A stretch of 64,000 nucleotides of DNA from Verrucomicrobiota bacterium (GTDB taxonomy: Bacteria; Verrucomicrobiota; Verrucomicrobiia; Limisphaerales; UBA8199), in NCBI GenBank assembly GCA_050011195.1, contig JBEKJO010000027.1:2385-66384 (forward strand), in the 5' to 3' direction. Under the pieces are notes generated by a model, which saw only the letters and a program-made list of their open reading frames with translations, did no database searches and was not told the origin of the DNA. The position numbers and the translations under genes were made by a program. Below are positions 6,334-64,000 of the stretch, piece after piece; within the stretch, counting starts at the first letter, position 1; each line of letters begins with the position of its first letter.

Positions 6334-8406
6334 ATGGTCCCGGCTCTTTTGCTTATGAGTGCTGTTTTTCAGTCACCCGACCAGAAAAGCGGAGCGGATC
6401 GCGATTGGCTGGCTGGTCTCCGCGTCGATGCGGAAAAGGGCGATGCCGTTGCCCAGTTCACTCTGGGCGTAGTCTACGGCGATGGCGTAGGCGTGGCGAA
6501 GGATGAGGCGGAGGCGGTGAAGTGGTATCGTAGGGCCGCCGAGCAGAATCACGCTCTGGCTCGGAACAATCTGGGAGCTTGCTACCACAATGGCCAAGGC
6601 GTGGCGAAGGATTATCTGGAAGCGGTGAAGTGGTATCGCAAAGCCGCCGAGCAGAATCTCGCGCTTGGTCAATGTAACCTGGGCGTGTGCTACGGCAACG
6701 GCTACGGCGTGGCGAAGGATGAGGTGGAGGCGGTGAAGTGGTTCCGCAAAGCCGCCGAGCAGAATCTCGCGCTTGCTCAATATAATCTGGGCGTTTGCTA
6801 CGAGCGCGGCCAAGGCGTGGCCAAGAACGAGGTTGAGGCGGCGAAGTGGTACGCCAAAGCCGCTGAGCAGAATGACGCCGGTGGGCAATACAATCTAGGG
6901 CATTGCTACTACAAAGGCGAAGGCCTGCTGAAGGATGAGGCGGAGGCGGTGAAGTGGTGGCGCAAAGCCGCCGAGCAGAATCACTCGCTGGCTCAATGCT
7001 GGCTGGGCGTCTGCCATGCGCGTGGCCAAGGCGTAGTGAAGGATGAGGTGGAAGCGGTGAAGTGGTATCGCAAAGCCGCCGAGCAGAATATCGCCGCTGC
7101 TCAATGCTATCTCGGCTGGTGCTACACGGAGGGCCGAGGCGTAACGAAAGATAAGGTGGAGGCGGTGAAGTGGTATCGCAAAGCCGCCGGGCAGGATGAC
7201 GCCGATGCGCAATTCAATCTGGGCGTCTGTTACGAGAATGGCCAAGGCGTGGCCAAGGATACGGTAAAGGCGGTGAAGTGGTATCGCAAGGCCGCAGCCC
7301 AGGATCACGCCGATGCTCAATTCAATCTGGGCGTCTGTTACAAGAACGGCCAAGGCGTGGCAAAGGACGAGACGGAGGCGGTGAAGTGGTATCGTAAAGC
7401 CGCCGAGCAGAATGACCCTGATGCACAATACAATTTGGGCCTCTGCTATGCCAAAGGCCAAGGCGTGACCAGGGATACGGTGGAGGCAGTGAAGTGGTAT
7501 CGCCGGGCCGCCGCGCAGAATCACCCTCAGGCCCAATACAGCCTGCAGGGCGGCAGTGCTCCTTCAAGCCAACAAGAGCTGTCAAGGCTTGACGGCTTGG
7601 TGAGCCGCCTTAACAGTTTAATTGGACTTTCCAAGGTGAAGGAAGACGCCGCCCGACTCATTAACCTGGTCAAGGTCAGACGGATACGCCAGCAGAAAGG
7701 CATGAGGGTGACTCCCATGTCGCTACACTTGGTCTTTACCGGAAACCCGGGAACTGGCAAGACCACGGTAGCTCGTCTCCTGGGCGAGATTTACCATGAA
7801 ATTGGTATCCTGTCGAAAGGGCATCTCACTGAGACCGACCGGAGTGGGCTCGTGGCCGGTTACCTGGGGCAGACGGCGATCAAAGTGAGTGAGGTTGTCC
7901 AAGGAGCATTGGGGGGCATCCTCTTTATTGACGAGGCGTACTCGCTGGCACAGGAAGCACAGCGAGACCAATTCGGCAGAGAGGCGATTGATACCCTCAT
8001 AAAGCGAATGGAAGATCACCGCGACGATTTGATCGTCATCGTGGCGGGATACACGGAACCGATGAAAGCTTTTCTCGAATCAAATCCCGGACTTCGCTCC
8101 AGGTTTAACAAATTCCTACACTTCGATGATTATTCCCCACAGGAGCTTTTCCAGATCTTTACCAAGTATTGTGAGGACGAGGGCTACGCCTTCGCCAATA
8201 CTTCTGCTGGCAAAATTAAGGCCCTCATAAACCTGGCGCGCGAGAGGCGTGCCGCGAACTTCGGCAATGCCAGGACCATTCGAAATCTGTTTGAACAGAC
8301 GATCTCTAACCACGCAAACCGTGTCGCAAGTATTACAAACCCATCACAAAGCGACTTGACCACCATTTTGCCCCAAGATGTTCCAACCGTTGCCGCCACA
8401 AGATAA
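6334..8406 (+). CDS. Sel1-repeat (about 10 copies) protein fused to a CbbX/SpoVK-type AAA+ ATPase
   Basis: Ten 36-aa units of the form A..NLG.CY..G.GV.KD..EAVKWYRKAAEQ are present. The C-terminal part has Walker A GNPGTGKT, Walker B ILFIDEAY, and NPGLRSRF. Confidence 0.9.
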   Translation: MVPALLLMSAVFQSPDQKSGADRDWLAGLRVDAEKGDAVAQFTLGVVYGDGVGVAKDEAEAVKWYRRAAEQNHALARNNLGACYHNGQGVAKDYLEAVKWYRKAAEQNLALGQCNLGVCYGNGYGVAKDEVEAVKWFRKAAEQNLALAQYNLGVCYERGQGVAKNEVEAAKWYAKAAEQNDAGGQYNLGHCYYKGEGLLKDEAEAVKWWRKAAEQNHSLAQCWLGVCHARGQGVVKDEVEAVKWYRKAAEQNIAAAQCYLGWCYTEGRGVTKDKVEAVKWYRKAAGQDDADAQFNLGVCYENGQGVAKDTVKAVKWYRKAAAQDHADAQFNLGVCYKNGQGVAKDETEAVKWYRKAAEQNDPDAQYNLGLCYAKGQGVTRDTVEAVKWYRRAAAQNHPQAQYSLQGGSAPSSQQELSRLDGLVSRLNSLIGLSKVKEDAARLINLVKVRRIRQQKGMRVTPMSLHLVFTGNPGTGKTTVARLLGEIYHEIGILSKGHLTETDRSGLVAGYLGQTAIKVSEVVQGALGGILFIDEAYSLAQEAQRDQFGREAIDTLIKRMEDHRDDLIVIVAGYTEPMKAFLESNPGLRSRFNKFLHFDDYSPQELFQIFTKYCEDEGYAFANTSAGKIKALINLARERRAANFGNARTIRNLFEQTISNHANRVASITNPSQSDLTTILPQDVPTVAATR

Positions 8407-19359: not shown

Positions 19360-22314
19360 ATGATGCCAATGACACGAACATGTGCTGAATGCGGGGCCAC
19401 GCTAGCGGGCGACACCGCGGCTGGCGCTTGCCCGGTTTGCGCCTTGCGGGGCGCGCTGGAACTGTCCGGCGCTACGGCGGAGGTCGTGGTGACTGAGAAA
19501 CCCGGCGACCAAATCGGGCATTATAAGCTGCTCGAAAAGATTGGCGAGGGCGGGTGCGGCATCGTGTACATGGCCGAGCAGATCAAGCCCATTCGCCGGC
19601 GTGTCGCTCTGAAGATCGTCAAGCTGGGCATGGACACCAGGCAGGTCATCGCCCGGTTCGAAGCCGAGCGCCAGGCCCTGGCCCTGATGGACCATCCGAA
19701 CATCGCCAAAGTGCTCGATGCCGGGGCCACCGATACCGGCCGGCCCTACTTCGTCATGGAGTTGGTGCGCGGCATCAAGATTACCGACTACTGCGACCAG
19801 CACCACCTGTCCACCCCTGAGCGGCTGGACCTGTTCATGCAAGTCTGCCATGCCATCCAGCACGCACACCAGAAAGGGATCATCCATCGCGACATCAAAC
19901 CTTCCAACATCCTGGTTACTTTGCTGGACGGCGTGCCCATTCCCAAGGTGATTGATTTCGGCATTGCCAAGGCCACGCAGCAGCCATTGACCGATAAGAC
20001 CCTGTTTACCGGCTTCCACCAGTTCATCGGCACGCCAGCCTACATGAGCCCGGAACAGGCGGAAATGGGCCCGCAGGATATAGACACGCGCAGCGATATT
20101 TACGCCCTGGGCGTGCTGCTCTACGAGCTATTAACGGGGCGCTTGCCATTCGAACAGAAGGAGATGCTTGAGGCTGGCCTGGACGAAATGCGGCGGCTCA
20201 TTCGGGAGAAAGAGCCGCCCAAACCTTCGACCCGCCTGAGTACATTGGCGCACGGCGACCTCACTGCTATTGCCAGAAGCCGCCAGACCGAGCCACCCCG
20301 GTTGCTCCACTTGGTGCGTGGCGACTTGGACTGGATCGTAATGAAATGCCTGGAGAAGGACCGCGCGCGCCGTTACGACACGCCGAACGGGTTGGCGCGG
20401 GACCTGGAGCGGCACTTGAACCATGAGCCGGTGACCGCCGCGGCGCCGAGCCCGTTCTACCGAATGGGCAAATTCGTCCGCCGCCATCGCGTTGGGCTCG
20501 CAACCGCAGCGGCCCTATTGGTTCTGGTGGTCGCTGGGGTGGTGGCAAGCGTGTGGCAGGCGGTGCGCGCGACCAAGGCCGAGGGGCAGGCGCGAACGGT
20601 GGCTACGTTCTTGAAAAACATGCTGAACGGCGTGCGCCCATCCCGAGCGTTGGGACGGGACACGAAAATGCTCCGGGAAATTTTGGATAGAACCGCCGGC
20701 AGCCTTGGAAAAGACCTCCGGAATCAACCGGCGGTGGAGGCCGAGCTCCGCAGCACGGTCGGCGGAGTTTACCTGGACCTCGGCGAATATGAAAAGGCCG
20801 AGACCATGCACCGCGCGGCGCTGGCGTTGCGAAAGGAAGTTTTTGGTTACGAGCACCCGGACGTCGCCGAATCGCTCGACGAGCTTGGCAACGCCCTTTA
20901 CCGGCAAAGCAAGCTGACCGAAGCCGAAACCACGCATCGCGAGGCCCTGGCGCTGCGGAGAAAACTGCTTGGCAGCCGTCATCCCAAAGTGGCTGCCTCG
21001 CTCAACAATCTGGCCAACACACTCCGGGAGCAGGGCAGGCTGGCGGAGGCTGAAGCCATGTTCCGCGAGGCGCTGGTGTTGCGGAGAGAATTGCTGGGCA
21101 GTAACCACGCGGAAACCGCCGAGACGGTGGACAACCTGGGCGCAATCCTCTCGCTCCAGGACAAGTTTCAAGAGGCCGAGACGATGCAGCGCGAGGCGCT
21201 GGCGTTGGACAAACGGCTGCTCGGCAACGACCATCCCGACGTGGCCCTCTCGCTCAACAACCTGGCCGATACGCTCACGGCCGAAGGCAAGCTGGACGAG
21301 GCTGAGGCCAGGTCCCGCGAGGCGCTGGCGTTGCGACGGAAAGTGCTCGGCGCGGAACATCCCGACGTGGCTTTCTCGCTCTTCAATCTGGCCAATGTGC
21401 TCTTGCGGCAGGACAAGCTGGCGGATGCCGAGGCCGCCCATCGCGAGGCGCTGGCCATGCGGCGGAAATTGCTCGGCAACGACCATCTCGCCGTGGCTGG
21501 ATCGCTCAATAACGTGGCTGCAGTGCTGATCGCCGAAGATAAGCTGGCCGAGGCGGAAACCGCGCAGCGCGAGGCCCTGGCGATCCAACGCAAAGCTTTG
21601 GGCGGCGAGCATCAAGATATTGCCGGCTCGCTCGCCAATTTGGCTTACCTGCTCCAGCGCCGAGGCCAGTTGGCCGAGGCCGAGGCGACGCAGCGCGAGG
21701 CGCTGGCCATGCGGCGGAAGCTGCTGGGCAATGAGCATTCCGATGTGGCCGCCTCGCTTGCCGGCCTGGCCGACGTGCTCTACGACCAACACAAGCTGGC
21801 GGAGGCCGAAGCCTTGCAGCGGGAAGAGTTGGCGATGCGGCGAGAGTGGCTGTCAAAAACGTCTCCGCACCTGCCCGCCCTGGTCAACAACCTCGTTGAT
21901 GCCTTTTTCCGCTTGACGCGCACCGTCCTGGCGGCGGAAGAGTTTGCCGAGGCCGAGCGGCTGGCGCGCGAGTGGCTGGCCCTTGGCGAAAAGGAATTGC
22001 CCGACGACTGGCAGACGTTCAATGCCCGCAGCATGCTGGGCAGCGGCCTGCTGGGGCAGAGGAAGTTCACCGAAGCCGAGCCGCCCCTGGTCTTCGGCTA
22101 TGACGGAATGAACCGGCGGCAGGAAAAGGTCCCGCCTGAATACAAATTCCGCCTGCGGGAGAGTCTAGAGTGTTTGGTGCGCCTCTACCAGGCCACGGGC
22201 CGGCCTGACCAAGCTGCCGAATGGAAGAAGAAGCTCGCAAATTACAGCGCGTCTGAGCCCGACCAGAAGGCCAACGCCCCCAAACCGCAGCCGCCCTTGC
22301 CCGGCAGCCCTTAA
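19360..22314 (+). CDS. Ser/Thr protein kinase with a TM segment and a long TPR (TPR_10/12-like) array
   Basis: It has an N-terminal CxxC..CxxC and the kinase motifs [20 protein letters not shown] and SPEQ. A TM helix is followed by about ten repeats of the form AE...REALA.RRKLLG..HPDVA.SLNNLA. Confidence 0.9.
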
Positions 22315-25187: not shown

Positions 25188-27906
25188 ATGAGAATTGAAA
25201 GAAGTACAAGAATCGGAACAGAAAACACCAACAAAAACCAGAGCGCCAGCCCACCGGCCCACCGGGGGCGCACTAAAACCGCCTTACGGGCGGCAATGTG
25301 CCTGCTGGCGTGGCTTGGCGTCACCGGTGTTGGTTTTGCCCAAACCGTCGTCTGGTCGGAGAACTTTGACGACGGCAACGGAAACAACCGTTGGTATGCC
25401 GATGCTGGCATCTGGCAAATCGGCTCGCCAACCTTCGGTCCAGCTGCGAATTCCGCCGGGTGTCGTGCTCATTCGTGCCCAGATTGCGCGACGACTGGAC
25501 TGACCGCCAATTATACTGGTGGTGCAAACTCAAGGCTGATTCGTATCCAGTCCTTTGCAGTTCCAGCAACCAACCAGTTTCCGCGTCTGCGTTTTTGGCA
25601 TTGGTACAGCTTTGCTTGTGCCAATTGCTACGATACAAGCGGTTGCGATTATGGGGTCGTGGAGGTGAAAGGCACTAATGGAACATGGCAGGCCGTGTCT
25701 CCGGGATACTACGGCACTGGCGGCGATTGGACCTATGCCTCGGTGGATTTGAGCGGCTATGCCGGCCAGACGGTGCAAGTGGCTTTCCACATAGTCTATA
25801 ACCAGACTGGCGGCTGCGAAAACACGGCGCCGGGATGGTATGTGGATGATATTGCGTTCGAGACAGGGACGCCCGTGTTTAACAATCCGGAAGGCTTTGA
25901 GGACGGAATTGGAGATTGGTATGCCGAAACCGGAACTTGGCAGGTGGGCGTGCCGACCAGTGGGCCGGGGGCGGCGCACAGTGGAACGAACTGTGCCGCT
26001 ACCATCTTGAATGGCAATTACGCGGATGCGAATGGGTGGGCCGGTTCGCGACTGATTTCCGCGGCGTTCAGTGTTCCAGCAACACTGCTACGATTCAAGC
26101 GGTTGCGATTATGGGGTCGTGGAGGTTAAAGGCACTAATGGTATATGGCAGGCCGTGTCTCCGGGATATTATGGCACTGGGGGTGGTTGGACCTACGCGT
26201 CGGTGGATTTGAGCGCCTACGCCGGCCAGACGGTGCAGTTAGCGTTCCACCTCGTCTACGGGCAGAGTGGCTGCGAAAACACGGCGCCGGGATGGTATGT
26301 GGATGATATAGCACTAATTACCGGCACACCGGTGTTCAACAACCCGGAAAGCTTTGAGAACGGAATTGGGGACTGGTATGCGGAGACGGGAACCTGGCAG
26401 GTGGGCGTGCCGACCAGCGGGCCGGGGGCGGCGACCATCTTAAATGGCAATTACCCAGGTGGGGCCAATTCGCGTCTAGTGTCACCGAAATTAATCCTCC
26501 CCCCTGCCTTTAGTAGTCCAGCATTGCGTTTCTGGGAATGGTACAGCTTTGCTTGTGCCAACTGCTACGATACAAGCGGTTGCGATTATGGGGTCGTGGA
26601 GATTAAAGCAGGTACAAACTCGTGGACCGGACTCTATACAAATAGCGGAAGTGGTGGCGTATGGTCGTATCCCTATATACCTCTTACCGCCTATGGTGGC
26701 CAGACAGTACAGTTTGCTTTCCATATAGTCTATAACCAGACTGGCGGCTGCGAAAACACGGCCCCGGGCTGGTATGTAGATGACGTGTTCATTCAAAGCT
26801 TTAACCAGCCCTTTATCCTTACTTCACCTGCCAGCCAAACGAATTCTGTCGGGTCAAGTGCGACATTAAATGTCAGCGCCAGCGGTGATCTGCCTTTGGG
26901 TTATCAGTGGCGGTTTAACTCCAACTCCATAGCGGGCGCCACCAACACAACGTTAACGTTGACTAACGTGCAGCTTTCACAGGCGGGTTATTACGATGTG
27001 GTGGTGACGAACGATGCTGGTTCCGTCACGAGCACACCTGCCCTGCTTACCGTGATCATGGCTCTTACAGGGACCAATATAAACGATCCCGGAGAATACG
27101 GAAGCTTGACGAACTCCAGTGGCGTTTATACCGTGAGTGGTGCGGGAGAAGGCACAGATGGCACGGCGGATATTTTCTACTTCGCTTATCAGATACTGGC
27201 AGGAGATGCCCAAATCATCGCCCGGTTGACAGGTATGCGGGGCGGCGATTCGCAATTGGCCGAGGCCGGCATCATGATTCGCGAAACTCTTGATCCGGGA
27301 GCTAAACAGGTTTCATTCTCGGTGAACGAGAGCACCAACGCGATTTTCCGGCGGCGGCTGACTAATGATGACTTCACCATACAGAACAGCCTTCGAGGGA
27401 CAAATTACCTTCAGGGGCCAAACTACATCTGGCTTCGATTAATGCGCATGGGGAACACGTTTGTGGCGCATTACTCAACCAACGGTCTGAACTGGCAATA
27501 CATGTGGTTCACGACTGTGACCATGTCCAACCAGGTGCAGGTTGGGCTGGCAGTCACCGCTCATCACTACGGCGAAACTAACACTGCCAGCTTCGACAAC
27601 GTGAGCCTGGGAAGCTTGACTACGCTTTCCGGCACATGGCCGTTGCCTGGACCGCAGATTCTGCTCGGCGGAGATGGAGCCACAGCAGCCGCGTTCCAGA
27701 GCGTCGGAGGCTTCAAGTTCCTTGTCGGCGGCGTGGTGGGGGACTATTACAGTATTAAGTGCTCCACTAATGTGGCGGCGAGCCTCGCTTCGTGGCCGTT
27801 ACTTGGCACGGTGACGAATACTTATGGCGTGGTGCCTTTCGTCGATACGCAGGCACTGACCAACAAACGCATGTTCTATCGCGCGCAAAAGCTCGGCGGG
27901 CCGTAG
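25188..27906 (+). pseudogene. Large secreted protein interrupted by a frameshift near 26084: three MAM/choice-of-anchor-like modules, an Ig-like domain, a LamG/DUF1349-like domain and an FYR-ending C-terminal domain
   Basis: ORFs 25092-26129 and 26071-27906 are a single gene. Module 2 lacks 55 nt present in module 1 (caaccagtttccgcg...gtgccaat) and has 2 nt in their place, so 53 nt net is lost and the frame shifts. Confidence 0.65.
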
Positions 27907-28004: not shown

Positions 28005-28095
28005 TTCCATAGCGTGTAGACGCCGACGGCAGTCGGCGCTGATTTTCAGTCCCGCAAGATGGCGCCGACTGCCGTCGGCGGCTACACCCTGTAGG
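28005..28095. repeat. Palindromic dispersed element, family C
   Basis: The arms are gtagacgccgacggcagtcggcgc and gcgccgactgccgtcggcggctac. A second copy lies at 63931 to the window end. Confidence 0.8.
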
Positions 28096-28191
28096 TAGTT
28101 TGTGCGAGGTATGAGAATTCCGGGTTAGCAGATTGGGGAGGGGTGGCTGGGCTGCGGTTTATGGTGGCGAACTGGCCCAGGAGGCAGCGGT

Positions 28192-28520
28192 TAATACCAC
28201 TTCCAGCTCGAAGATGCACTATTTCCTGTAAGGCAAGCAGGTACAGTAGTTTGCGCGATATTTGGACAGACCTTGGGGGCTACCGCCGGCACGAAGACTA
28301 CTGCGGGCGGGGGAATAGCAGGTATTGGGAGGATCATCGGAGGGGCATCATGCCGACACCAGTGTTCCTGCCGCAAAACCTTGCCTTCGCGCCCCCCGGA
28401 CGTAAGGGCGCAGGGGCGTCTTCTGCCGCTGCGCCGGTAGTCGTGTCGGGTTCGACGCTACCAGCAACGCTTCTGAGTGGCGCTCGCCGGAGCCGTGGTC
28501 TGGGCATTCCACGAGGCTGG
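28192..28520 (+). repeat. Family E element, copy 1 (~330 nt; candidate structured ncRNA or MITE)
   Basis: It aligns end to end with 50646-50973 in the same orientation. The centre has indels that break any common frame, and two hairpins show compensatory substitutions. Confidence 0.7.
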
Positions 28521-28560
28521 GGGGTACTTATACTATTTCCATCACACTGTCAAGTAGAGA

Positions 28561-28700
28561 GTTATACCACTTTGCAATGGAACTCGGTAGGAATGAGTGG
28601 AAGCCCCCCGCCCCTGAACCCCCAGGCAAAGACGGACCCCTCTCCTCAGCCCTCTCCCCTTGAGAAGGGGAGAGGGTGGTCGCAGGCCGGGGGAGGGGAA
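28561..28700. repeat. Family F element (28561-28642) abutting a family D hairpin element (28636-28700)
   Basis: F (ataccactttgcaatggaactcggtaggaatgagtggaagc...caggcaaagacggacccctc) recurs inverted at 50143-50224. The D hairpin is ccctctcccc ttgagaa ggggagaggg. Confidence 0.75.
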
Positions 28701-28746
28701 CATACCGATTGTTTCAGTGAAATGGTATGAGTGGGTCAAGATTTAG

Positions 28747-30384: not shown

Positions 30385-30430
30385 CGCGCCCAGCTTGCCG
30401 AGAAAGCGTCGAAAGGCAAGGTCGGGGAAT

Positions 30431-30526
30431 TGGAGTGATGGAGTGATGGAGTGGCGGAGTATTGGAGTATTGGAGTATTGGAGTATTGGAGTGGTGGAGT
30501 GATGGAGTGATGGAGTGATGGAGTTT
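30431..30526. repeat. Octamer tandem array, 12 units
   Basis: The units are tggagtga x2, tggagtgg, cggagtat, tggagtat x3, tggagtgg, tggagtga x3 and tggagttt. The array sits in the divergent lnt / ClC intergenic region. Confidence 0.9.
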
Positions 30527-30619
30527 GGGAGCGAGTTCAGAATTGCGTCTCGTCAAAGGGGCGATTTATCGCGATATTGGCTTGTGCAGTTTTTGAGGAA
30601 CACAAAGGTTGTGGGAGAG

Positions 30620-45126: not shown

Positions 45127-45200
45127 GCCTAAAGTCCACACCAGCCTACGTAAAAAATGCCGCTAAAGCAACCCGGGATTCGCCGGCGGCTTTGGGGGGG

Positions 45201-45373
45201 GGCGCATCCTGACACTGCCCCCGGACCGCGAGCCGTCCGCGGCTCGCAGCGCGTTGGAATGTGAGAGAGCTTCGAGCATTGTTTCGCGTTCGTGGCTGCT
45301 GCGAGCCGCGGACGGCTCGCGGTCCGTCACCGTTGGGCGTTCTCACTCCTTGGTGGCAGTATCGAGATGCGCC
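45201..45373. repeat. Palindromic dispersed element, family A (copy 1)
   Basis: The outer arms are ggcgcatcctgacactgcc and ggcagtatcgagatgcgcc. The inner arms are ggaccgcgagccgtccgcggctcgc and gcgagccgcggacggctcgcggtcc. Confidence 0.85.
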
Positions 45374-45472
45374 CGTTTTGAGGGTTGCAGTCCCCCCGTT
45401 GCCCGGCCCTCATTTTTCGATATATTTGCGTGACAGCCGCGGCCAGGTGACTATATTTCCTCGCCCTTGGAC

Positions 45473-45547
45473 GACCCTATCGTCTAGCGGTTAGGACACC
45501 GCCCTTTCACGGCGGCGGCACGGGTTCGAGTCCCGTTAGGGTCGCCA
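45473..45547 (+). tRNA. tRNA-Glu (anticodon TTC), CCA encoded
   Basis: The acceptor stem gacccta pairs with tagggtc, the anticodon loop is cTTTCAc, and the T-arm is gggttcgagtccc. It aligns closely with canonical bacterial tRNA-Glu. Confidence 0.95.
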
Positions 45548-45606
45548 CCTGCATGAATGTTCCCCCGCGCGTCCTTGACGAGGAACACCCTCCCGTGTTT
45601 CCAACC

Positions 45607-45639
45607 GGAAGGGCGGCCCGTTATCGGGCCGCCCTTTCC
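45607..45639 (+). terminator. Strong hairpin downstream of tRNA-Glu
   Basis: The hairpin is ggaagggcggccc gttatc gggccgccctttcc. There is no clear U-tract. Confidence 0.3.
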
Positions 45640-46130
45640 CATTGCACTAATAATGTCTCAAGAGGCTAAACACCTCGGACCGCAGTTGGTCTCGAAATAC
45701 TTCAAAATAAGGCTTGCCAAAGGGCGGCGGGTTGCCGTATAAACAATGGCGCCGGGCTATGATAGTTTTAGTTTCAGTTCAGTTGGCCGACGCGGTTGTT
45801 AACGGGATGGCTTGCCTCTCGATTGGCCTCGTCGGGTATCTCTTCTGCCTGCGCTTTCGGGAAAGGCGCGAGCAGAAGAAAGTGCAACGGGAGCGTGATC
45901 GCGACCGCCGAAAGCATTGGGGTTACATTTGAGCATTGAAAGGCGCGCCGTTGCCACTCTGGCGCGGGTTTGCAGGACTTGCCGTGCCTGAGTTCAGCCA
46001 GGCACGCGGAATGTCCTGCTGAGTGGATGCCGCTGCCGTCGTTCTTTTGTCCGGGTGGCGTACAGCCTTTGCCTCCCCTGGGGTTCCCCATCCCCAAACC
46101 TGCCAAGGCGTAAGCTGCCCGGACTGCCTT

Positions 46131-46517
46131 TCAGCTTTTCCAATCGAACGCGCGCTTCTTCACAGCATAGAGGTAACCGACGAACAGGATGGCCAGGAAA
46201 GAGACCATCGCGCCGAGAATCACCCCGCCGTTTTCCTTGAGCATTTCCCTGTAAATGACCGCCCAGGGATAGAGAAAGACCACTTCGATATCGAAGAGAA
46301 TGAAGAGCATCGCGACGAGATAGAACTTCACCGAAAGCCGCGCGCTGCCTTCGCCCACCGGCACCATCCCGCATTCGTAAGGGGTGTCCTTGACCGGCGG
46401 GCGCTGGCCCCGTTTGCCCAGGACCACCGACATTACCAACATGCCGAACGAAAACACCACCGCCAGCACCCCGAGCATCAACACCGGGAGATACTGCGTC
46501 AGTTGCAATTCTTCCAT
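46131..46517 (-). CDS. nuoA: NADH-quinone oxidoreductase subunit A
   Basis: The protein reads PYECGM...KFYLVAMLFILFDIEVVFLYPWA. Confidence 0.9.
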   Translation of the reverse strand: MEELQLTQYLPVLMLGVLAVVFSFGMLVMSVVLGKRGQRPPVKDTPYECGMVPVGEGSARLSVKFYLVAMLFILFDIEVVFLYPWAVIYREMLKENGGVILGAMVSFLAILFVGYLYAVKKRAFDWKS

Positions 46518-46569
46518 GGGGCGAATCTAAGGTTCCCCCGCGCGTTGGCAAGTTGAATCCCCAACGCGG

Positions 46570-46713
46570 CAAGATTCGCCCTTTATCCGGACCGCGAGCC
46601 GTCCCCGGCTCGCAGCGCGTTGGAAGGTGCAAGAGCTTCGACCGTCATTTCGCGTCCGTGGCTGCTGCGAGCCGGGGACGGCTCGCGGTCCGGGGACAGT
46701 ATCCCGCTGCGCG
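46570..46713. repeat. Family A element (copy 2)
   Basis: The arms are ccggaccgcgagccgtccccggctcgcagc and gctgcgagccggggacggctcgcggtccgg. Confidence 0.8.
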
Positions 46714-46772
46714 TTTCCTGCCGCTCTTTTCGCCGTGCATTTTTCCCGCCGCCGTGCTAAATTGGCGCGCAA

Positions 46773-47627
46773 ATGTATCCTCCGGTCGTTACCAAAGATC
46801 CGACTGCGGTCGAGGTCGAGGTGCAAGCCGCCTGCCGGGCGATGTTTCCCGAGGCCGATCCCATGTTCGTGCCGCGGGTTTTCGGCTGGGCGATCGAGTG
46901 TTTCACGGGCAACTACCGGGATTATCAGGCGGTGGATGCCCGCTACCATGATTTTGAGCACACGCTGCAAGGCACACTCTGCCTGGGGCGGCTGCTGCGC
47001 GGACGGCACGCAGCGGGGGCCCAGCCGCAACTCTCCCAGCGCATGTTTCAACTCGCTCTGGCGGCGGTCCTGCTCCATGACACCGGCTATCTGAAAAGGC
47101 GCGACGACACCGAAGGCACCGGCGCAAAATACACCGTCATTCATGTTAAGCGCAGCGCGGACTTCGCCGCGCAACTGCTGCAAGAGAAAGGCTTCAGTGC
47201 CGGCGACATCAAGGCCGTGCAAAACATGATCTCCTGCACCGGTATCAACGCGGCGCTCAGTGCCATTCCTTTCCAGAGCGAAATGGAGAAGGTGGCCGGC
47301 TTCGCCCTGGGCACCGCTGATTTGCTGGGCCAAATGGCCGCGGAGGATTATGTGGATAAACTCCCGGTTCTCTATGCCGAGTTTGCGGAGGCCGCCCGCT
47401 ACTCCAAAGATCGAACCCATTTCGTCGCCCTGTTCACCAGCGCGGACGATCTAATGTGGAAGACCCCGACTTTCTGGGAGAAACTGGTCCGCGTGAAACT
47501 GGACCGGGATTTCGGGGGTCTGCACCGCTTTTTGAACGACCCGTATCCTTCCGGCCCCAATGCCTATGTCCAACGCATCGAGGCCAACCTCGAACGCCTG
47601 CGCCAGCGCTTAACGCCGGTCACCTGA
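46773..47627 (+). CDS. HD-domain phosphohydrolase-like protein
   Basis: The motifs YHDFEHT and LLHDTGY are present. Confidence 0.7.
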   Translation: MYPPVVTKDPTAVEVEVQAACRAMFPEADPMFVPRVFGWAIECFTGNYRDYQAVDARYHDFEHTLQGTLCLGRLLRGRHAAGAQPQLSQRMFQLALAAVLLHDTGYLKRRDDTEGTGAKYTVIHVKRSADFAAQLLQEKGFSAGDIKAVQNMISCTGINAALSAIPFQSEMEKVAGFALGTADLLGQMAAEDYVDKLPVLYAEFAEAARYSKDRTHFVALFTSADDLMWKTPTFWEKLVRVKLDRDFGGLHRFLNDPYPSGPNAYVQRIEANLERLRQRLTPVT

Positions 47628-47812
47628 CGGTGTGTCTCAACACTACCCCCGGACCGCGAGCCGTCCCCGGCTCGCAGCACATTCGACCGTGTAGGCAGCG
47701 GGCCAGAAGTTCAATCGCCGTTTCGCATTGGTGGCCGCTGCGAGCCGGGGACGGCTCGCGGTCCGTGACTGTTGGGCGTCCTCACTCTTTGGTGGCAGTG
47801 TGCGGATGCGCC
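47628..47812. repeat. Family A element (copy 3)
   Basis: It has the same inner arms, and the outer right arm is ggcagtgtgcggatgcgcc. Confidence 0.8.
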
Positions 47813-47895
47813 CCGGTGCGCTTCAGGGTTGTTTCGGTCCGGCGCAACAGGCAAAACTCCAGCCGCATCGCGTGACCTATAACCGGCATCGCACT

Positions 47896-49977
47896 ATGAA
47901 AACGTCCAACTTAACCCAAGCCGCCGCCCCCGCCATTTTCGCCGCGGCCATCGCCGTGACGGCGGCCCCGGCCGCCGCCGCCGAGCCGGAGTTCAACGGC
48001 CAACACTACCGTGGCCGCGGCGATGTCGAATACCTGCGGTTATTGGACACCGCGCGCCGCATGTTCGAGCCGGACCCCGAACTGCAAAACCTCGCCATGC
48101 TCTACGAGCCCAAATGGGACGGCCTCGTTGAAGGGCCGACTTGGGACGCGTGGTGGATTCAGAACTCCTACGGCACCACCTACAGCATCCTGCCGCTCCT
48201 GCGCGAGCCTTTCGTCACCTTCCTCCAGCATTCGCAGGACCTGTGGTTCGACCAGATGGGCGATGGCCACCGCACCGGCGCCGCGCCGCCCCTCGACTGG
48301 GTCGCTCCCGACGGCTGTCTTTGCGATGCCGCGCGGCCCGGCTGGATCGTCTATAGGCAAGGGGATGGCCGCATCGGCATTCACGATTGGGGCCTGGAAT
48401 TCACCGCCGCGGGCATCCTCCTGCAATCGGAACTGCTGCTCATCGGCCGCGACCCCGGCGCCCTGGCCCATTATCTCCCCCGGCTGGAGCGCAGCGCCAA
48501 CTTCATTGAGACCCGGCGCGACCCGACCAACAACCTCTTCCGCGCCGGCCCTGCCGGCAATCTGCTCGCCCCCAGCTACGCCGGCTGGCGCCGCCCCGAC
48601 GGCTCCTATGGCCAAGCCTACCTCGCGGGCTTGTCCATCACCTACATCGCGGCCCTGGACCGCTTGATCGAGCTGGAGAAACTGGCGCACAATTCCGCGC
48701 GCGTCTCCCTCTACACCGCCCGCCGCGACCTCGCGAGGCAAGGACTTCCACGCCTGACCACCGAGGAGGGCTACTTCATCCGCTCGCTCGACCCGGACGG
48801 CGTCAAGCACGGCGTCTTCGGCGCTCAAGAACATGGCTACTTCGAAGCCTCGCCCAACCACGACGCCATCGCCTTTCGCGTCGCCGGTGACGCCCAGTCC
48901 GAGCGGATTTACCGCAAGATCGCCTCACTGCCCGGCCTGCGCCCTTATGATTTCATCCTCCCCAACTATCCTTCCTACGACGACATGTATGAAAAGCCCG
49001 AGGGCCTCTGGGCCTACGGCACGTGGGTCAACGGCGGGCATTGGTCCACCTGCGAAGCCCGCATGGTCCTCGCCTATTACCGCCTCGGCCAATTCGACGA
49101 CGCCCGACGGTCCATGCGCCGCCTGCTGACCTTCGCCGAGCGCTTCCGCATGGACAACCCGCTCACCAAGCGCGGCAGCGACGTCTATCAGCCCAACCAG
49201 CCCATCAACCTCTGCTACGACACCTTCGGCCCTGCCGCCGCCTTCATGCGCGGCCTCTTCGAATACCTCTACCGCGCCGACGGCCTCACGCTCGTCCCGC
49301 ACATCCCGCCCGCCATTGAGGAACTCCAGCAACTCGACCCCGTCCGCTTCGGCCAAAAGAAGCTCTTCCTCACCACCATTGGCCGCGGCCCCGTCACCGG
49401 CGTCAGAGTCAACGGACGCAAGTGGAAAGACTTCGACCCGGTCTCGGTGTTCCTGCCCTACGACAAAACGCCCGCCGTCGCGCATATTCAAATCCTCTTG
49501 GGCAACGCCAAGCCCCGAACCGGCATGACGGCGCAAAAGGCCGCCATGAACCTTACCGAACGCACCCCTCTCCCTGCCCTCTCCCCGCGAAGCGGGGAGA
49601 GGGTGGCCGAAGGCCAGGAGAGGGGGAGGGCATGGAAAGGGCAGGGGACCGAACTGGCCGCGCTGGACCAGCGGGTCGGGCCGCTACGTGAGTTCCATCG
49701 CCGACTGGCCGCGGCCGGCCTCGGCGACACCCCCGCCGCGGCTCACGTGCAGCTTGCCCTCGACTGCATCGAAACCACGCACCGCCGCCAGCACCTCCTC
49801 CAGACCGGCAAGATCAAACCGTTGCCCGGCCCCGCCGAGGCCGCCGCCGACCAGTCCTACCTCGAAACCGCCCAAAAGCTCTGCGCCGGCTTGGACGCCT
49901 CACTGAAGTCCGCCGAAACCGCCACCGACCCCGCGTCCCGGAAAATTTCTCGCCTCTGGCGGGAAGTTTCCCACTGA
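47896..49977 (+). CDS. Secreted hypothetical protein (possibly a six-hairpin glycosidase-like fold)
   Basis: The start is at MKTSNLTQAAAPAIFAAAIAVTAAPAAAA (signal peptide). The fold assignment is weak. The gene carries an in-frame family D hairpin element at 49564-49630. Confidence 0.7.
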   Translation: MKTSNLTQAAAPAIFAAAIAVTAAPAAAAEPEFNGQHYRGRGDVEYLRLLDTARRMFEPDPELQNLAMLYEPKWDGLVEGPTWDAWWIQNSYGTTYSILPLLREPFVTFLQHSQDLWFDQMGDGHRTGAAPPLDWVAPDGCLCDAARPGWIVYRQGDGRIGIHDWGLEFTAAGILLQSELLLIGRDPGALAHYLPRLERSANFIETRRDPTNNLFRAGPAGNLLAPSYAGWRRPDGSYGQAYLAGLSITYIAALDRLIELEKLAHNSARVSLYTARRDLARQGLPRLTTEEGYFIRSLDPDGVKHGVFGAQEHGYFEASPNHDAIAFRVAGDAQSERIYRKIASLPGLRPYDFILPNYPSYDDMYEKPEGLWAYGTWVNGGHWSTCEARMVLAYYRLGQFDDARRSMRRLLTFAERFRMDNPLTKRGSDVYQPNQPINLCYDTFGPAAAFMRGLFEYLYRADGLTLVPHIPPAIEELQQLDPVRFGQKKLFLTTIGRGPVTGVRVNGRKWKDFDPVSVFLPYDKTPAVAHIQILLGNAKPRTGMTAQKAAMNLTERTPLPALSPRSGERVAEGQERGRAWKGQGTELAALDQRVGPLREFHRRLAAAGLGDTPAAAHVQLALDCIETTHRRQHLLQTGKIKPLPGPAEAAADQSYLETAQKLCAGLDASLKSAETATDPASRKISRLWREVSH
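49564..49630. repeat. Family D hairpin element inside a CDS
   Basis: ccctctcccc gcgaagc ggggagaggg is translated as ..PLPALSPRSGERVAEGQERGRA.. Confidence 0.75.
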
Positions 49978-49991
49978 ACGCCCAATCGAAC

Positions 49992-50125
49992 GGCGCGCAT
50001 CTCGACACTGCCCCCGGACCGCGAGCCGTCCCCGCAGCGGCCACGACTGCGAAGCGGCGATCAAGCCTCTGACATGCTCCCCGCACGCTCCAACGCCCTG
50101 CGAGCCGGGGACGGCTCGCGGTCCG
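49992..50125. repeat. Family A element (copy 4; right outer arm missing)
   Basis: The sequence runs ggcgcgcatctcgacactgcccccggaccgcgagccgtcccc ... gcgagccggggacggctcgcggtccgtcactgttgg. Confidence 0.8.
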
Positions 50126-50142
50126 TCACTGTTGGACATTCG

Positions 50143-50291: not shown

Positions 50292-50507
50292 ATGAAGACT
50301 CCAGCAAAAGCATGTCGGAATTGCGGCGGCACGGAGTTTTATGCCGGCGACTCCGCCCGGACCGTAGCGATAGCCGTTACGTTCTTCTCTCTTCCGCCCA
50401 AGTTTCATCTGCGCGTTTGTGGCGGTTGCGGACTGGTTGATTGGTTCCTGCCCGAGAAGGACGTGCAGAAGCTCAAGAAGAAGTTTTCACCTGAAAAGGC
50501 AGGATGA
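50292..50507 (+). CDS. Small zinc-ribbon protein (71 aa)
   Basis: CRNCGG and CGGCG are CxxC pairs. The ORF sits in isolation between repeat elements. Confidence 0.4.
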   Translation: MKTPAKACRNCGGTEFYAGDSARTVAIAVTFFSLPPKFHLRVCGGCGLVDWFLPEKDVQKLKKKFSPEKAG

Positions 50508-50645
50508 TGGGGCACTTGCCGCCCAACGGGACTCGGAGGCCACCCGAGAGGGCAAAATCACCATTCCTGAGTGCCAGAAAAGGCCCATTTCTGGCCAAAG
50601 CTCGCGGATTTCGTCTGAAAATGGCGGTTTCAGCCCCCCGAACTG

Positions 50646-50973
50646 TAATACCACTTCCAGTTCCAAGATGCACTATTTCCTGTAAGGCAAGCAGGCACAG
50701 TAGTTTGCGCCATATTTGGACAGACCTTGGGGGCTACCGCAGGCACGAAGACTACGGCGGGCGGGCTAAAAGTGAGTATTGGGAACATCATCGGAGCGAC
50801 ATCATGCCATTGCCGGTGTCTGTATCGCAATCTTCAACTTTCGGCCCATCCGCACGAGGGGGCGCAAGGGGGTTTTCTGCCCTTGCGCCCATAGTCGTGT
50901 CGGGTTCGACGCAACCGGCAACGGTTCTGAGGCCCGTTCGCCGGAGCCGTGGTCTGAGCATTCCACGAGGCTG
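50646..50973 (+). repeat. Family E element, copy 2 (candidate structured ncRNA or MITE)
   Basis: See 28192-28520. Confidence 0.7.
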
Positions 50974-51385
50974 ACGGGCGTATAACAAAAAAGGCCCTCG
51001 CTGTCAAGAACGAAAGCAACCGGCTGCGGGGCGGGCAACCACTCGCACCTGGGCGAGACCTGGCGGGGGTGGAAGTGGAAGTTGGGGCATGGTGTTCTGC
51101 GGTTGAATTCGTAGGGCGGCTCTTGACCGCGCCAGGCGAGGATGCGGCAGCGGAAGCATTTGTAGCGCGGGAGCCTCCTGCGGCTGAGGCCGGGCGTTCG
51201 ACAGCGGCAGCAAGCAGCCGCACTCCAAACGCTGGCGCGCAATTCGTCCGCTCTACGCGCAGGCGACGGAGCAGCATCGGCGGAATTCACTCTGCTCCAT
51301 AAAGCCGCGAAGGTTTCTCGATTCCTGGCTTGCACCCCGAGCGACAGCCGGTCAAAATGCATCCCGAACGAAAGACTTTGACTTT

Positions 51386-63863: not shown

Positions 63864-63930
63864 ACGCAGATTCTAACCGTCAACAACCGCCGTGGCAAAA
63901 AGTTCCTGCTATAGCCGGTTAACCGGGAAA

Positions 63931-64000
63931 TTTCATAGCGTGTAGCCGCCGACGGCAGTCGGCGCTGATTTTCAGTCCCGAGAGATGGCGCCGACTGCCG
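63931..64000. repeat. Family C palindromic element (truncated by the window end)
   Basis: catagcgtgtagccgccgacggcagtcggcgctgattttcagtcccgagagatggcgccgactgccg matches 28005-28095. Confidence 0.8.

What the first reader, a model, noticed from the sequence alone, without database searches (positions are those of the whole stretch)
28192..28520. Two ~330-nt non-coding paralogues (28192-28520 and 50646-50973) with compensatory substitutions: candidate structured RNA
The two copies align over their full length in the same orientation. The ends are well conserved: taataccacttccag...tttggacagaccttgggggctaccgc at the 5' end and gtcgtgtcgggttcgacgc...ccggagccgtggtctg.gcattccacgaggctg at the 3' end. The central part has indels that break any shared reading frame. 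Hairpin 1 is GGCGCAG...CTGCGCC in copy 1 and GGCGCAA...TTGCGCC in copy 2, so a G-C pair is replaced by an A-T pair. Hairpin 2 is aacgC...Gcgct in copy 1 and aacgG...Cccgtt in copy 2, so C-G is replaced by G-C. I could not match the element to any RNA family from memory. Both copies lie in repeat pile-ups next to family F, D, C or A elements.
Basis: partly seen in the sequence, partly recalled or inferred. Interest (0 to 1): 0.6.

Follow-up and report, generated by a model that had tools for sequence, protein, structure and literature searches.

The report
Transposon-borne promoter and structured mRNA leader

Summary
28192-28520 and 50646-50973 align over 328 nt at about 83% identity, without gaps, so the reported indels are wrong. 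One metagenome scan recovered at least 58 distinct relatives, mostly from peat.

A conserved RNA fold exists: 90.7% of cells pair against 37-48% in slid controls, and 94 double-change cells occur against 33±5 in shuffles. No Rfam family matches.

The RNA is encoded on the window's minus strand. Read that way, each copy has:
- a TTGACA-N17-TAnnnA promoter;
- a 259-nt leader with hairpins H1-H3, and a long-range helix H4 enclosing hairpin H5 and a long variable hairpin closed by H6;
- the start codon and 12 codons (MAQTTVPVYLTG) of a roughly 217-aa DUF6266-like gene;
- a roughly 32-nt terminal inverted repeat.

Five complete elements elsewhere (544-697 nt) carry both inverted repeats, and all ten flanks read TNA. 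Intact genes (L105, L106, L007) carry the same leader without inverted repeats.

Both window copies have one inverted repeat and a dead open reading frame, and both point at the 3' ends of convergent genes. At most they produce orphan leader transcripts. Whether they act as RNAs is untested.

The parts
28192..28194 (.). TAA: the TNA target-site flank of copy 1
   Evidence: All 10 flanks of the 5 complete elements read TNA, and the two flanks are identical in 3 of the 5. Both window copies have TAA here.
28195..28226 (.). Terminal inverted repeat of copy 1 (TACCACTTCCAGCTCGAAGATGCACTATTTCC). It is the only one present; the partner repeat is missing from the window.
   Evidence: The pattern search finds it only at 28194 and 50648 in the window. 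Its inverted partner lies 544-697 nt away in L006, L037, L042/L079, L043/L088 and L072/L089.
28224..28259 (-). Dead stub of the DUF6266-like ORF: 12 codons, with the start codon mutated from ATG to ATC at 28259-28257
   Evidence: Other copies read MAQTTVPVYLTG from an ATG at this position. Intact genes continue GKVGSVVYTGNRQG....
28260..28518 (-). 259-nt structured 5' leader RNA of copy 1. H1 28494-28513; H2 28457-28493; H3 28445-28456; H4 28437-28444 pairing with 28291-28301; H5 28407-28435; H6 28391-28398 pairing with 28304-28311; variable long hairpin 28312-28390; inferred Shine-Dalgarno region 28270-28278, complementary to the 5' end at 28509-28517.
   Evidence: Covariation counts are. The 5'-end/Shine-Dalgarno complementarity is.
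28525..28553 (-). Promoter-like site of copy 1: -35 TTGACA (28553-28548), 17-nt spacer, -10 TAAGTA (28530-28525). The inferred start is A at 28518.
   Evidence: The hexamers are conserved across two unrelated spacer types. L105, which has the intact gene, carries TTGACT-N17-TATACT. The motif is kept in 21 of 38 distinct copies. The strict sigma-70 scanner does not call it.
28554..28564 (-). Last family-homologous bases upstream of the promoter (..AACTCTCTAC). Homology with other copies ends at TTA 28562-28564.
   Evidence: Other copies continue GGGTCTAACTCTCTAC; copy 1 diverges here.
50646..50648 (.). TAA: the TNA target-site flank of copy 2
50649..50680 (.). Terminal inverted repeat of copy 2 (2 mismatches to the family 18-mer); the partner repeat is missing
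50630..50713 (-). Residual 27-codon ORF of copy 2 (MAQTTVPACLTGNSASWNWKWYYSSGG*). Only the first 12 codons derive from the gene; the rest is the inverted repeat and flank read through.
50714..50972 (-). 259-nt structured 5' leader RNA of copy 2. H1 50948-50967; H2 50911-50947; H3 50899-50910; H4 50891-50898 pairing with 50745-50755; H5 50861-50889; H6 50845-50852 pairing with 50758-50765; variable hairpin 50766-50844.
   Evidence: The central hairpin has z = -2.64.
50979..51007 (-). Promoter-like site of copy 2: -35 TTGACA (51007-51002), 17-nt spacer of the second type, -10 TATACG (50984-50979). The inferred start is A at 50972.
   Evidence: The strict scanner does not call it.

Best explanation
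Both window copies are truncated members of a multi-copy, non-autonomous transposon (MITE) family in an uncultured peat Verrucomicrobiota lineage.

A complete element is 544-697 nt long. It is bounded by roughly 33-nt terminal inverted repeats starting TACCAC, and it inserts at TNA with a 3-bp duplication. Its cargo, read on the window's minus strand, is the 5' control region of a roughly 217-aa DUF6266-like gene:
- a TTGACA-N17-TAnnnA promoter;
- a 259-nt leader;
- the ATG and 12 codons, fused to one inverted repeat.

The leader has a conserved fold: three 5' hairpins (H1, H2 with a conserved CUCAGAA loop, and H3), followed by a long-range helix H4 that encloses hairpin H5 and a roughly 95-nt rod-like hairpin closed by H6. 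The sequence of that rod differs between subfamilies, but it always forms a hairpin.

What is shown: the family, the inverted repeats, the TNA flanks, the link to the gene, the strand, and the covariation.

What is inferred:
1. The promoter is active.
2. In the gene context the leader works in cis. Its first 9 nt (GCCUUGUGG) pair with the Shine-Dalgarno region (CCACGAGGU, 11 nt before the AUG). This closes the leader, protects the 5' end and occludes the ribosome-binding site. The competing local hairpin H1 (GUGG/CCAC) would release it.
3. The element arose when the gene's 5' part became enclosed by two element ends and the composite was then mobilised in trans.
4. The window copies have no usable ORF and face the 3' ends of convergent genes. 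At most they give orphan leader transcripts of about 330-500 nt.
For: Family size:
- One metagenome scan gave 104 loci. There are 66 blast copies and 58 distinct 5' domains.

MITE anatomy:
- Both inverted repeats are present in 5 distinct elements of 544-697 nt.
- All 10 flanks read TNA and 3 of 5 pairs are identical.
- No conserved ORF exists.

Link to the gene:
- The leader lies directly upstream of intact genes P0001 (L007) and P0002 (L105, L106), and of the truncated gene in L112.
- In those gene-linked copies codons 1-12 vary at synonymous positions.
- Pfam gives a weak DUF6266 match (E = 0.024), and three homologues carry PF19781.

Strand:
- The promoter and ORF are oriented on the minus strand.
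- G-U wobble cells number 103, against 42 A-C cells.

Structure:
- 47 curated pairs are 90.7% paired, against 37-48% when slid.
- 94 double-change cells occur, against 33±5 in shuffles and 26-60 when slid. 14 pairs show changes on both sides.
- The model-aligned 5' domain (58 distinct sequences) is 93.4% paired against 37-50%, with 66 double-change cells against 22±6.
- Eight divergent central regions all fold into one long hairpin, with z from -1.3 to -4.7.

Promoter:
- The hexamers are conserved in two unrelated spacer contexts. L105 has TTGACT-N17-TATACT. The unrelated leader of homologue P0004 has TTGACA-N17-TAGTGA at the same distance.

Anti-Shine-Dalgarno pairing:
- It is 9 of 9 pairs in nine of the 13 leaders that lack the inverted repeat, including those of the intact gene in L105 and L106.

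Host:
- The window's proteins are recorded in NCBI as a Verrucomicrobiota MAG.
Against: - Neither window copy has the second inverted repeat, so MITE status rests on relatives.
- No autonomous element with these ends was found.
- Two of the five target-site duplications differ at the middle base.
- The -10 hexamer lacks the usual final T in most copies, and the strict sigma-70 scan calls nothing.
- No expression data exist.
- The 5'-end/Shine-Dalgarno pairing shows no covariation, and most inverted-repeat-linked copies have only 7-8 of 9 pairs.
- Whole-leader folding z-scores for the window copies are modest: -1.9 and -2.6.
- Copies are related and mosaic (for example L058), so cell counts overstate the number of independent events.
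- A homologue at 56% protein identity has an unrelated leader, so the motif is confined to a narrow clade.
Confidence: 0.72

Rival explanations
1. The element is a free-standing, trans-acting structured non-coding RNA gene of about 260-330 nt that has become mobile. The transposon-borne copies are the functional units and are kept by selection on the RNA itself. They might act as decoys for a factor that binds the DUF6266-like mRNA leader, or as regulators. The gene-linked copies are then only one of several uses.
For: - The fold is also kept within the 30 inverted-repeat-linked copies: 93.2% paired, with 57 double-change cells against 18.7±3.5 in shuffles and 10-31 when slid.
- In those same copies the ORF stub decays. 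The start codon is lost in the window's copy 1 and in L003, L074, L077 and L090. Codon 3 is a stop in L026, L037, L009/L063, L032 and L039.
- The promoter-like motif is retained in 18 of 28 such copies.
- Divergence along the element is strongly uneven.
Against: - Inverted-repeat-linked and gene-linked copies share the same central-region subfamilies. This implies sequence exchange, so compensated helices could be inherited passively from selected gene leaders.
- About 10 of 28 inverted-repeat-linked copies lack the promoter motif.
- No terminator defines a discrete 3' end.
- No complementary target was found in the window.
- No expression data exist.
Confidence: 0.17
2. The element is a plain MITE with no RNA-level function. 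The hairpins are DNA-level features or neutral relics, and the apparent covariation comes from a few subfamily founders.
For: - Inverted repeats and TNA flanks are present.
- The element is nested among other repeats.
- Many copies are truncated or lack the promoter.
- Copies are mosaic.
Against: - The same leader occurs without inverted repeats in front of intact genes.
- At least 14 pairs show changes on both sides, and several show 3-4 pair types.
- G-U exceeds A-C by 103 to 42, which a DNA-level or strand-neutral structure does not predict.
- Sequence-unrelated central regions keep one hairpin shape.
Confidence: 0.07
3. The element is an invertible promoter switch. The two roughly 33-nt inverted repeats would be recombinase sites flanking a promoter-leader-N-terminus cassette that is flipped to express alternative downstream genes, as in shufflon or vsa-type phase variation.
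For: Inverted repeats bracket a promoter plus the first codons of a gene, and one repeat lies inside the coding sequence.
Against: - All ten flanks read TNA and 3 of 5 are duplicated, which points to transposition.
- The sequences outside the repeats are unrelated between loci and never carry the remainder of the gene.
- Loci recovered twice always show the same orientation: L042/L079, L072/L089 and L043/L088.
- Intact genes have no repeat at codon 12.
Confidence: 0.03
4. A small protein is encoded on the + strand: the ORF that is open in the same register in both window copies, with a GGAGG-ATG at 28350.
For: ORFs 28143-28730 and 50504-50974 share a frame, and a Shine-Dalgarno-like GGAGG precedes the ATG.
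Against: - That frame is open in only 21 of 43 family members.
- I read about 62% amino-acid identity from the translations, against roughly 78% nucleotide identity judged by eye over the same stretch. Substitutions are therefore not biased towards synonymous sites.
- The product is of low complexity.
Confidence: 0.01

Closest known systems
Prokaryotic MITEs that carry promoters or give rise to small RNAs: Correia elements of Neisseria, MITEAba12, BrickBuilt, and Coxiella QMITE1/2 with Cbsr3/13/16
   Same: It is small, non-autonomous and multi-copy, with terminal inverted repeats and short target-site duplications. It sits in intergenic repeat clusters and nests in other repeats. It carries a sigma-70-like promoter and folds as RNA. 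These properties are reviewed in PMC10969869 (read).
   Different: The promoter and fold are not by-products of the inverted repeats. They are a captured 5' region of a host gene: promoter, 259-nt leader and 12 codons. The same leader also exists without inverted repeats in front of intact genes. At 544-697 nt it is large for a bacterial MITE. I found no described bacterial MITE with this kind of cargo, but I ran no dedicated literature search for one.
IS5-family (IS1031 group) insertion sequences and the related eukaryotic PIF/Harbinger-Tourist elements
   Same: It has a 3-bp TNA target with duplication. From my own knowledge, this is typical of the IS1031 group and of Tourist MITEs (TAA/TTA). 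The IS5-Harbinger relationship is noted in PMC12730594.
   Different: No transposase was found. From memory, the TACCAC ends do not resemble the usual IS1031 ends. The family assignment is a lead only.
Pack-MITEs of plants (MITE-like elements that carry captured gene fragments)
   Same: Inverted-repeat-bounded non-autonomous elements whose interior is a fragment of a host gene, amplified to many copies. This comparison rests on my own knowledge.
   Different: This is a bacterial host. The captured piece is a promoter plus a structured 5' UTR and not exons. The capture mechanism is unknown.
Long structured 5' leaders of bacterial mRNAs (riboswitch-type or stabiliser-type leaders such as ompA and S-layer gene leaders)
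   Same: It lies between a promoter and a start codon, has a conserved multi-helix fold with covariation, and can pair its 5' end with the ribosome-binding region.
   Different: No ligand, protein partner or terminator is identified. It matches no Rfam family. It is found in only one narrow clade of the gene family. Most copies are detached from any gene.
Transposon-encoded guide or scaffold RNAs: IscB/TnpB omega RNAs (HEARO) and IS110 bridge RNAs
   Same: It is a structured RNA of a few hundred nucleotides, multi-copy, at the end of a mobile element, with a transcript running towards and across the element end.
   Different: No TnpB, IscB or IS110 recombinase gene adjoins the copies. No Rfam match to HEARO or related models was found. 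The element has inverted repeats and target-site duplications, which IS200/IS605 and IS110 lack. The RNA continues into a protein start codon.

Membership tests
MITE (miniature inverted-repeat transposable element) | Terminal inverted repeats at both ends | tested here: met
   Roughly 33-nt repeats are found in 5 distinct complete elements. The two window copies have only one repeat each, so they are truncated members.
MITE (miniature inverted-repeat transposable element) | Short direct duplication of the target site | tested here: met
   All 10 flanks read TNA. The pairs TTA/TTA, TGA/TGA and TAA/TAA are identical. Two pairs (both TTA/TCA) differ at the middle base.
MITE (miniature inverted-repeat transposable element) | Small, multi-copy, without a transposase gene | tested here: met
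   Elements are 544-697 nt long. There are at least 58 distinct copies. No frame is conserved across the family.
MITE (miniature inverted-repeat transposable element) | A cognate autonomous insertion sequence with matching ends that supplies transposase | tested here: inconclusive
   None occurs among the 113 loci or in the window.
IS5 family, IS1031 group / Tourist-like | 3-bp TNA target-site duplication | tested here: met
IS5 family, IS1031 group / Tourist-like | DDE transposase of that family, or ends matching a known member | not tested
   No transposase was found and no ISfinder comparison is available.
Any Rfam RNA family (including tmRNA, tRNA-like, HEARO, riboswitches, ribozymes) | Covariance-model match | tested here: not met
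   No hit appeared over the element at the gathering threshold. At E<=10, both window copies and the gene-linked L105 leader gave only noise. ARAGORN finds only tRNA-Glu, elsewhere in the window.
cis-acting structured mRNA leader | Lies between a promoter and the start codon of a conserved gene | tested here: met
   This holds for L105, L106, L007 and L112. It does not hold for the window copies, whose ORF is a dead stub.
cis-acting structured mRNA leader | Conserved secondary structure supported by covariation | tested here: met
cis-acting structured mRNA leader | Demonstrated effect on expression of the downstream gene (ligand, protein or stability) | not testable with these tools
   Only the complementarity between the 5' end and the Shine-Dalgarno region bears on this, and it is an inference.
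Diversity-generating retroelement template/variable repeat pair | Mismatches confined to adenines of one copy; reverse transcriptase nearby | tested here: not met
   The mismatches between the two copies involve all four bases. No reverse transcriptase appears among the neighbouring ORFs scanned.
Omega RNA / bridge RNA of IS200-IS605 or IS110 elements | Adjacent TnpB, IscB or IS110 recombinase gene; no inverted repeats or target-site duplication | tested here: not met
   No such gene lies next to the window copies. Inverted repeats and target-site duplications are present. An IS110-type transposase lies 2.3 kb from one gene-linked copy (L112), but this is not a recurrent association.

The most novel reading that the evidence does not exclude
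The transposon-borne orphan leaders are expressed and functional. On this reading, a transposon has spread dozens of copies of a roughly 260-nt structured RNA, with its own promoter, around a Verrucomicrobiota genome. The copies are kept for their fold and not for coding. They could act in trans, for example as decoys for whatever binds the leader of the DUF6266-like mRNA, with the hypervariable always-hairpin middle as a specificity module. Alternatively they could act as portable promoter-plus-stabilising-leader cassettes.
Probability: 0.17. Interest if true: 0.75.

Novelty: new variant of a known kind. Interest (0 to 1): 0.5.

Why it matters
1. It adds a previously undescribed, covariation-supported, roughly 260-nt RNA fold from a lineage absent from the species-representative genome collection that was scanned. 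It gives a concrete motif, the gene it precedes, and a testable anti-Shine-Dalgarno mechanism.
2. It shows a bacterial MITE whose interior is a captured promoter-leader-start-codon cassette of a host gene. This is a bacterial counterpart of plant Pack-MITEs and a route by which strong promoters and structured leaders can be scattered through a genome.
3. It is a practical warning for RNA-motif discovery. Multi-copy paralogues with compensatory changes can be mobile copies of an mRNA leader, and the correct strand becomes clear only once gene-linked relatives are found.

Tried and rejected
- Rfam at the gathering threshold and at E<=10, on both window copies and on a gene-linked leader: nothing relevant.
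- tRNA/tmRNA scan, prompted by the GGGTTCGA motif: nothing at the element.
- Coding potential in six frames: no conserved ORF.
- Diversity-generating retroelement template/variable pair: the mismatches are not adenine-specific.
- Genome collection (GTDB species representatives): the 21-mer GGACAGACCTTGGGGGCTACC gave 0 hits. The protein patterns of the DUF6266-like gene gave 8 pattern hits, none confirmed.
- Plasmid and phage collections by blastn: no match.
- Viral contigs: the 19-mer gave one locus, where only about 22 nt align, inside a coding region; I read this as a chance match. The inverted repeat gave 0 hits.
- RNAalifold on the plain MAFFT alignment gave only a partial consensus, because the helix register shifts between subfamilies. 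Averaged base-pair probabilities were too noisy. I replaced both with a covariation-driven helix search, a hand-curated structure and a covariance-model alignment of the 5' domain.
- The strict sigma-70 scan does not call the promoter, so I keep it as inferred from conservation.
- Search for an empty site of the nested insertion: none among the loci.
- Search for antisense targets of the variable hairpin within the window: only chance-level matches.
- Function of the gene: AlphaFold model with mean pLDDT 78.8. It has a disordered basic N-terminus, three helices and a C-terminal FN3/Ig-like sandwich. Fold searches return only generic FN3/Ig domains. No paper mentions DUF6266.
- Leaders of more distant homologues: P0004 has an unrelated leader, and no match was found in the P0017 and P0020 loci.
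Full report
**Observation**

The two stretches are real paralogues. MAFFT aligns 28192-28520 with 50646-50973 over 328 columns without a single internal gap. blastn gives 83% identity.

Both copies carry a + strand ORF in the same register. That ORF is still not a gene. Across 43 family members the frame is open in only 21, and the other five frames are open in 10 or fewer.

Rfam finds nothing over the element at its gathering thresholds or at E<=10. ARAGORN finds only an unrelated tRNA-Glu.

**A large family**

A 21-mer from the 5' part had no match in the species-representative genome collection. A scan of metagenome contigs with the 19-mer GTCGTGTCGGGTTCGACGC returned 104 loci, mostly from peat samples. 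Sixty-six of them hold copies 68-100% identical to copy 1. L044 is identical to the window.

The window's own proteins are recorded in NCBI as a Verrucomicrobiota MAG. Because all loci were found through that 19-mer, hairpin H3 is invariant by ascertainment and says nothing about conservation.

**Boundaries, strand and the link to a gene**

It runs through a block that reads, on the minus strand, TTGACA-17 nt-TAAGTA. In a second set of copies, including window copy 2, the spacer is unrelated but the hexamers are kept: TTGACA-17 nt-TATAC(A/G). The copy in front of an intact gene (L105) has TTGACT-17 nt-TATACT.

Read on the minus strand, an ATG at the position of CAT in CATATTTGGACAG opens MAQTTVPVYLTGKVGSVVYTGNRQG.... 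In L007 this is a 219-aa ORF. Its relatives are proteins of about 217-222 aa known only from metagenomes. Pfam gives a weak match to DUF6266, and three homologues carry PF19781.

An nhmmer profile of the repeat finds it directly upstream of the intact gene in L105 and L106, and of a truncated gene in L112. The repeat is therefore, on the minus strand, promoter + roughly 259-nt 5' leader + start codon + 12 codons.

The strict sigma-70 scanner does not call the promoter, because the -10 hexamer usually lacks the final T. I keep the promoter as an inference from its conservation in unrelated spacer contexts. A further point in its favour is the unrelated leader of the 56%-identical homologue P0004, which has TTGACA-N17-TAGTGA at the same distance from its ATG.

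**Transposon anatomy**

In L006, L037, L042/L079, L043/L088 and L072/L089 the same roughly 33 nt recur inverted on the far side of the promoter, giving elements of 544-697 nt.

With the ends set at TACCAC...GTGGTA, all ten flanks read TNA. The two flanks are identical in three of the five elements: TTA, TGA and TAA. Both window copies have TAA next to their single inverted repeat.

These features define a MITE. From my own knowledge, a 3-bp TNA duplication is typical of the IS1031 group of the IS5 family and of Tourist elements. No transposase was found, so that assignment is only a lead.

The element sits inside another repeat at a TGA in 17 loci, and other small repeats have inserted into it. 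In L112 a solo 41-nt element end cuts the gene at about codon 127. Junctions between this gene and these ends have therefore arisen more than once.

The simplest origin is that the 5' part of the gene became enclosed by two element ends and the composite was then mobilised in trans. This origin is inferred, not shown.

**RNA structure**

I aligned 43 distinct leaders in the RNA sense (A2). RNAalifold on this alignment recovered only part of the fold, because helix registers shift between subfamilies. A search for stacked column pairs with high pairing and covariation gave a nested set of helices, in RNA 5'-to-3' order:
- H1, a hairpin;
- H2, a hairpin with a conserved CUCAGAA loop;
- H3, a hairpin;
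- H4, a long-range helix;
- H5, a hairpin inside H4;
- H6, which closes the central region.

On the 47 curated pairs, the structure compares with its controls as follows:

| Measure | Structure | Partners slid 1-3 columns | 500 shuffles |
|---|---|---|---|
| Cells paired | 90.7% | 37-48% | 85.7% |
| Cells changed on both sides | 94 | 26-60 | 33±5 |

Fourteen pairs change on both sides, and several show three or four pair types.

A covariance model of the 5' domain realigned 58 distinct sequences. These gave 93.4% pairing against 37-50% when slid, and 66 double-change cells against 22±6 in shuffles.

The roughly 95-nt central region is only about 61% identical even among inverted-repeat-linked copies, and it comes in a few discrete sequence versions. 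All eight versions tested fold into one long irregular hairpin, with z-scores from -1.3 to -4.7. The best score belongs to the intact-gene copy.

G-U wobble cells outnumber A-C cells by 103 to 42. This fits an RNA transcribed from the minus strand. It does not fit a DNA-level or + strand structure.

**How it most likely works**

In nine of the 13 leaders that lack the inverted repeat, including those of the intact gene in L105 and L106, the first nine transcribed bases after the start (GCCUUGUGG) are fully complementary to CCACGAGGU. That sequence contains the only Shine-Dalgarno-like GAGG, 11 nt before the AUG. The same GUGG can also form the local hairpin H1 with CCAC.

My best guess for the gene context is a closed leader whose 5' end is base-paired. 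This would protect the mRNA and occlude the ribosome-binding site, with H1 as the competing, opening conformer. There is no covariation for this pairing and no experiment, so I rate this step at about 0.3.

For the two window copies the downstream consequence is different:
- Copy 1 has lost the start codon (ATC).
- Copy 2 has a 27-codon read-through of the inverted repeat.
- Copy 1 lies between the 3' ends of two convergent genes: an Ig-domain protein gene and lnt.
- Copy 2 points at the 3' end of a 71-aa gene.

The window copies cannot drive a gene. At most they produce orphan leader transcripts.

**Are the orphan copies functional?**

The fold is kept within the 30 inverted-repeat-linked copies alone. 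Pairing is 93.2%, with 57 double-change cells against 18.7±3.5 in shuffles. Meanwhile their ORF stubs decay.

This would suggest selection on the RNA itself, but two points weaken it. First, inverted-repeat-linked and gene-linked copies share the same central-region subfamilies although all inverted-repeat-linked copies share one junction. That implies sequence exchange between the two classes, so compensated helices may be inherited passively. Second, about a third of inverted-repeat-linked copies lack the promoter motif.

No antisense target of the variable hairpin was found in the window. I give the functional-orphan reading about 0.17.

**Comparison with what is known**

Bacterial MITEs with sigma-70-like promoters (Correia, MITEAba12, BrickBuilt, QMITE1) and MITE-derived small RNAs (Cbsr3, Cbsr13, Cbsr16) are described (PMC10969869, read). 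The present element differs from these in three ways:
- its promoter and fold are the captured 5' control region of a host gene;
- the fold has independent covariation support;
- the same leader exists in front of intact genes.

It resembles plant Pack-MITEs in principle (from my own knowledge). It fails the tests for omega or bridge RNAs, diversity-generating retroelement repeats, tmRNA and every Rfam family.

The gene product has a disordered basic N-terminus, three helices and an FN3/Ig-like sandwich. Fold searches return only generic matches, so its function remains unknown. No paper in the library mentions DUF6266.

**Verdict**

The feature is a new variant of a known kind: a MITE with a captured promoter and structured-leader cargo, and a new RNA motif confined, so far, to a narrow uncultured lineage. 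Interest is moderate at 0.5. It would rise to about 0.75 if the orphan copies prove to be expressed and selected as RNAs.

Noticed in passing
window 30408-30547; 2627-2678; 4165-4216; 56177-56313; also L042/L079, L035, L052, L106, L007: There are arrays of 7-8-nt tandem units: GGAGTGAT-type about 14 times, and CGTGAAA/CGTGATG about 10 times. The same kinds of short-unit arrays sit inside the element, or replace its promoter side, in related loci: CGTGATG in L042, L079 and L035; GACGCTCC in L052; CATTTAA in L106 and L007. Their origin and role are unknown.
   Followed up: no
window 28013-28088 and 63923-64000: A 76-nt near-perfect palindrome of REP type occurs in two copies. Rfam only echoes it as spurious microRNA-hairpin hits on both strands. 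It lies between copy 1 and the 3' end of the Ig-domain gene, and it could stop transcripts from either side.
   Followed up: partly
window 28649-28698 and 49576-49625; L006: A palindromic module GCCCTCTCCCC...GGGGAGAGGG is repeated in the window. The same module is inserted inside the L006 copy of the element, which makes that copy 697 nt long.
   Followed up: partly
window 28565-28727: This may be a second small MITE of 163 nt, directly upstream of copy 1's promoter. Its termini are TACCAC.../...ATGGTA and its flanks are TNA (TTA and TGA). Its inverted repeats are weak, and the inverted-repeat tool did not report them.
   Followed up: partly
L020, L034, L037, L042, L046, L050, L062 and others (17 loci), just outside the inverted repeat: A roughly 150-nt module always precedes the inverted repeat, and a TGATACCCCAAGTCGCC module follows the element or its deletion derivatives. 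The element is therefore nested at a TGA inside another repeat, and the composite has been amplified.
   Followed up: partly
L112 6001-6430 and 2727-3761: A DUF6266-like gene with the leader and a good promoter (TTGACT-N17-TACCCT) is cut at about codon 127 by a solo 41-nt element end followed by TTA. An IS110-family transposase gene lies 2.3 kb upstream.
   Followed up: partly
L110 1-310: The homologue P0004 (56% identical protein) has a roughly 240-nt leader with no detectable similarity to this one, but the same TTGACA-N17-TAnnnA promoter at the same distance. Long leaders may be a general trait of this gene family.
   Followed up: no
window 6355-7626; 20714-21981; 25588-26783: Long in-frame tandem repeats occur inside large ORFs (108 nt about 10 times, 126 nt about 8-10 times). 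A roughly 460-nt unit is triplicated across the ORFs that include the Ig-domain protein next to copy 1.
   Followed up: no
window 45199-50141 (around tRNA-Glu at 45473-45547): A family of GC-rich palindromic repeats (CTGCGAGCCGGGGACGGCTCGCGGTCCG and its partner) recurs three or four times between genes.
   Followed up: no
L107/L108 (P0017 locus): A distant homologue of the gene (about 30% identity) heads a run of small same-strand ORFs with no Pfam match, on 3.4-kb contigs. Its upstream region is very GC-rich and repetitive. The context looks unlike the Verrucomicrobiota loci.
   Followed up: no
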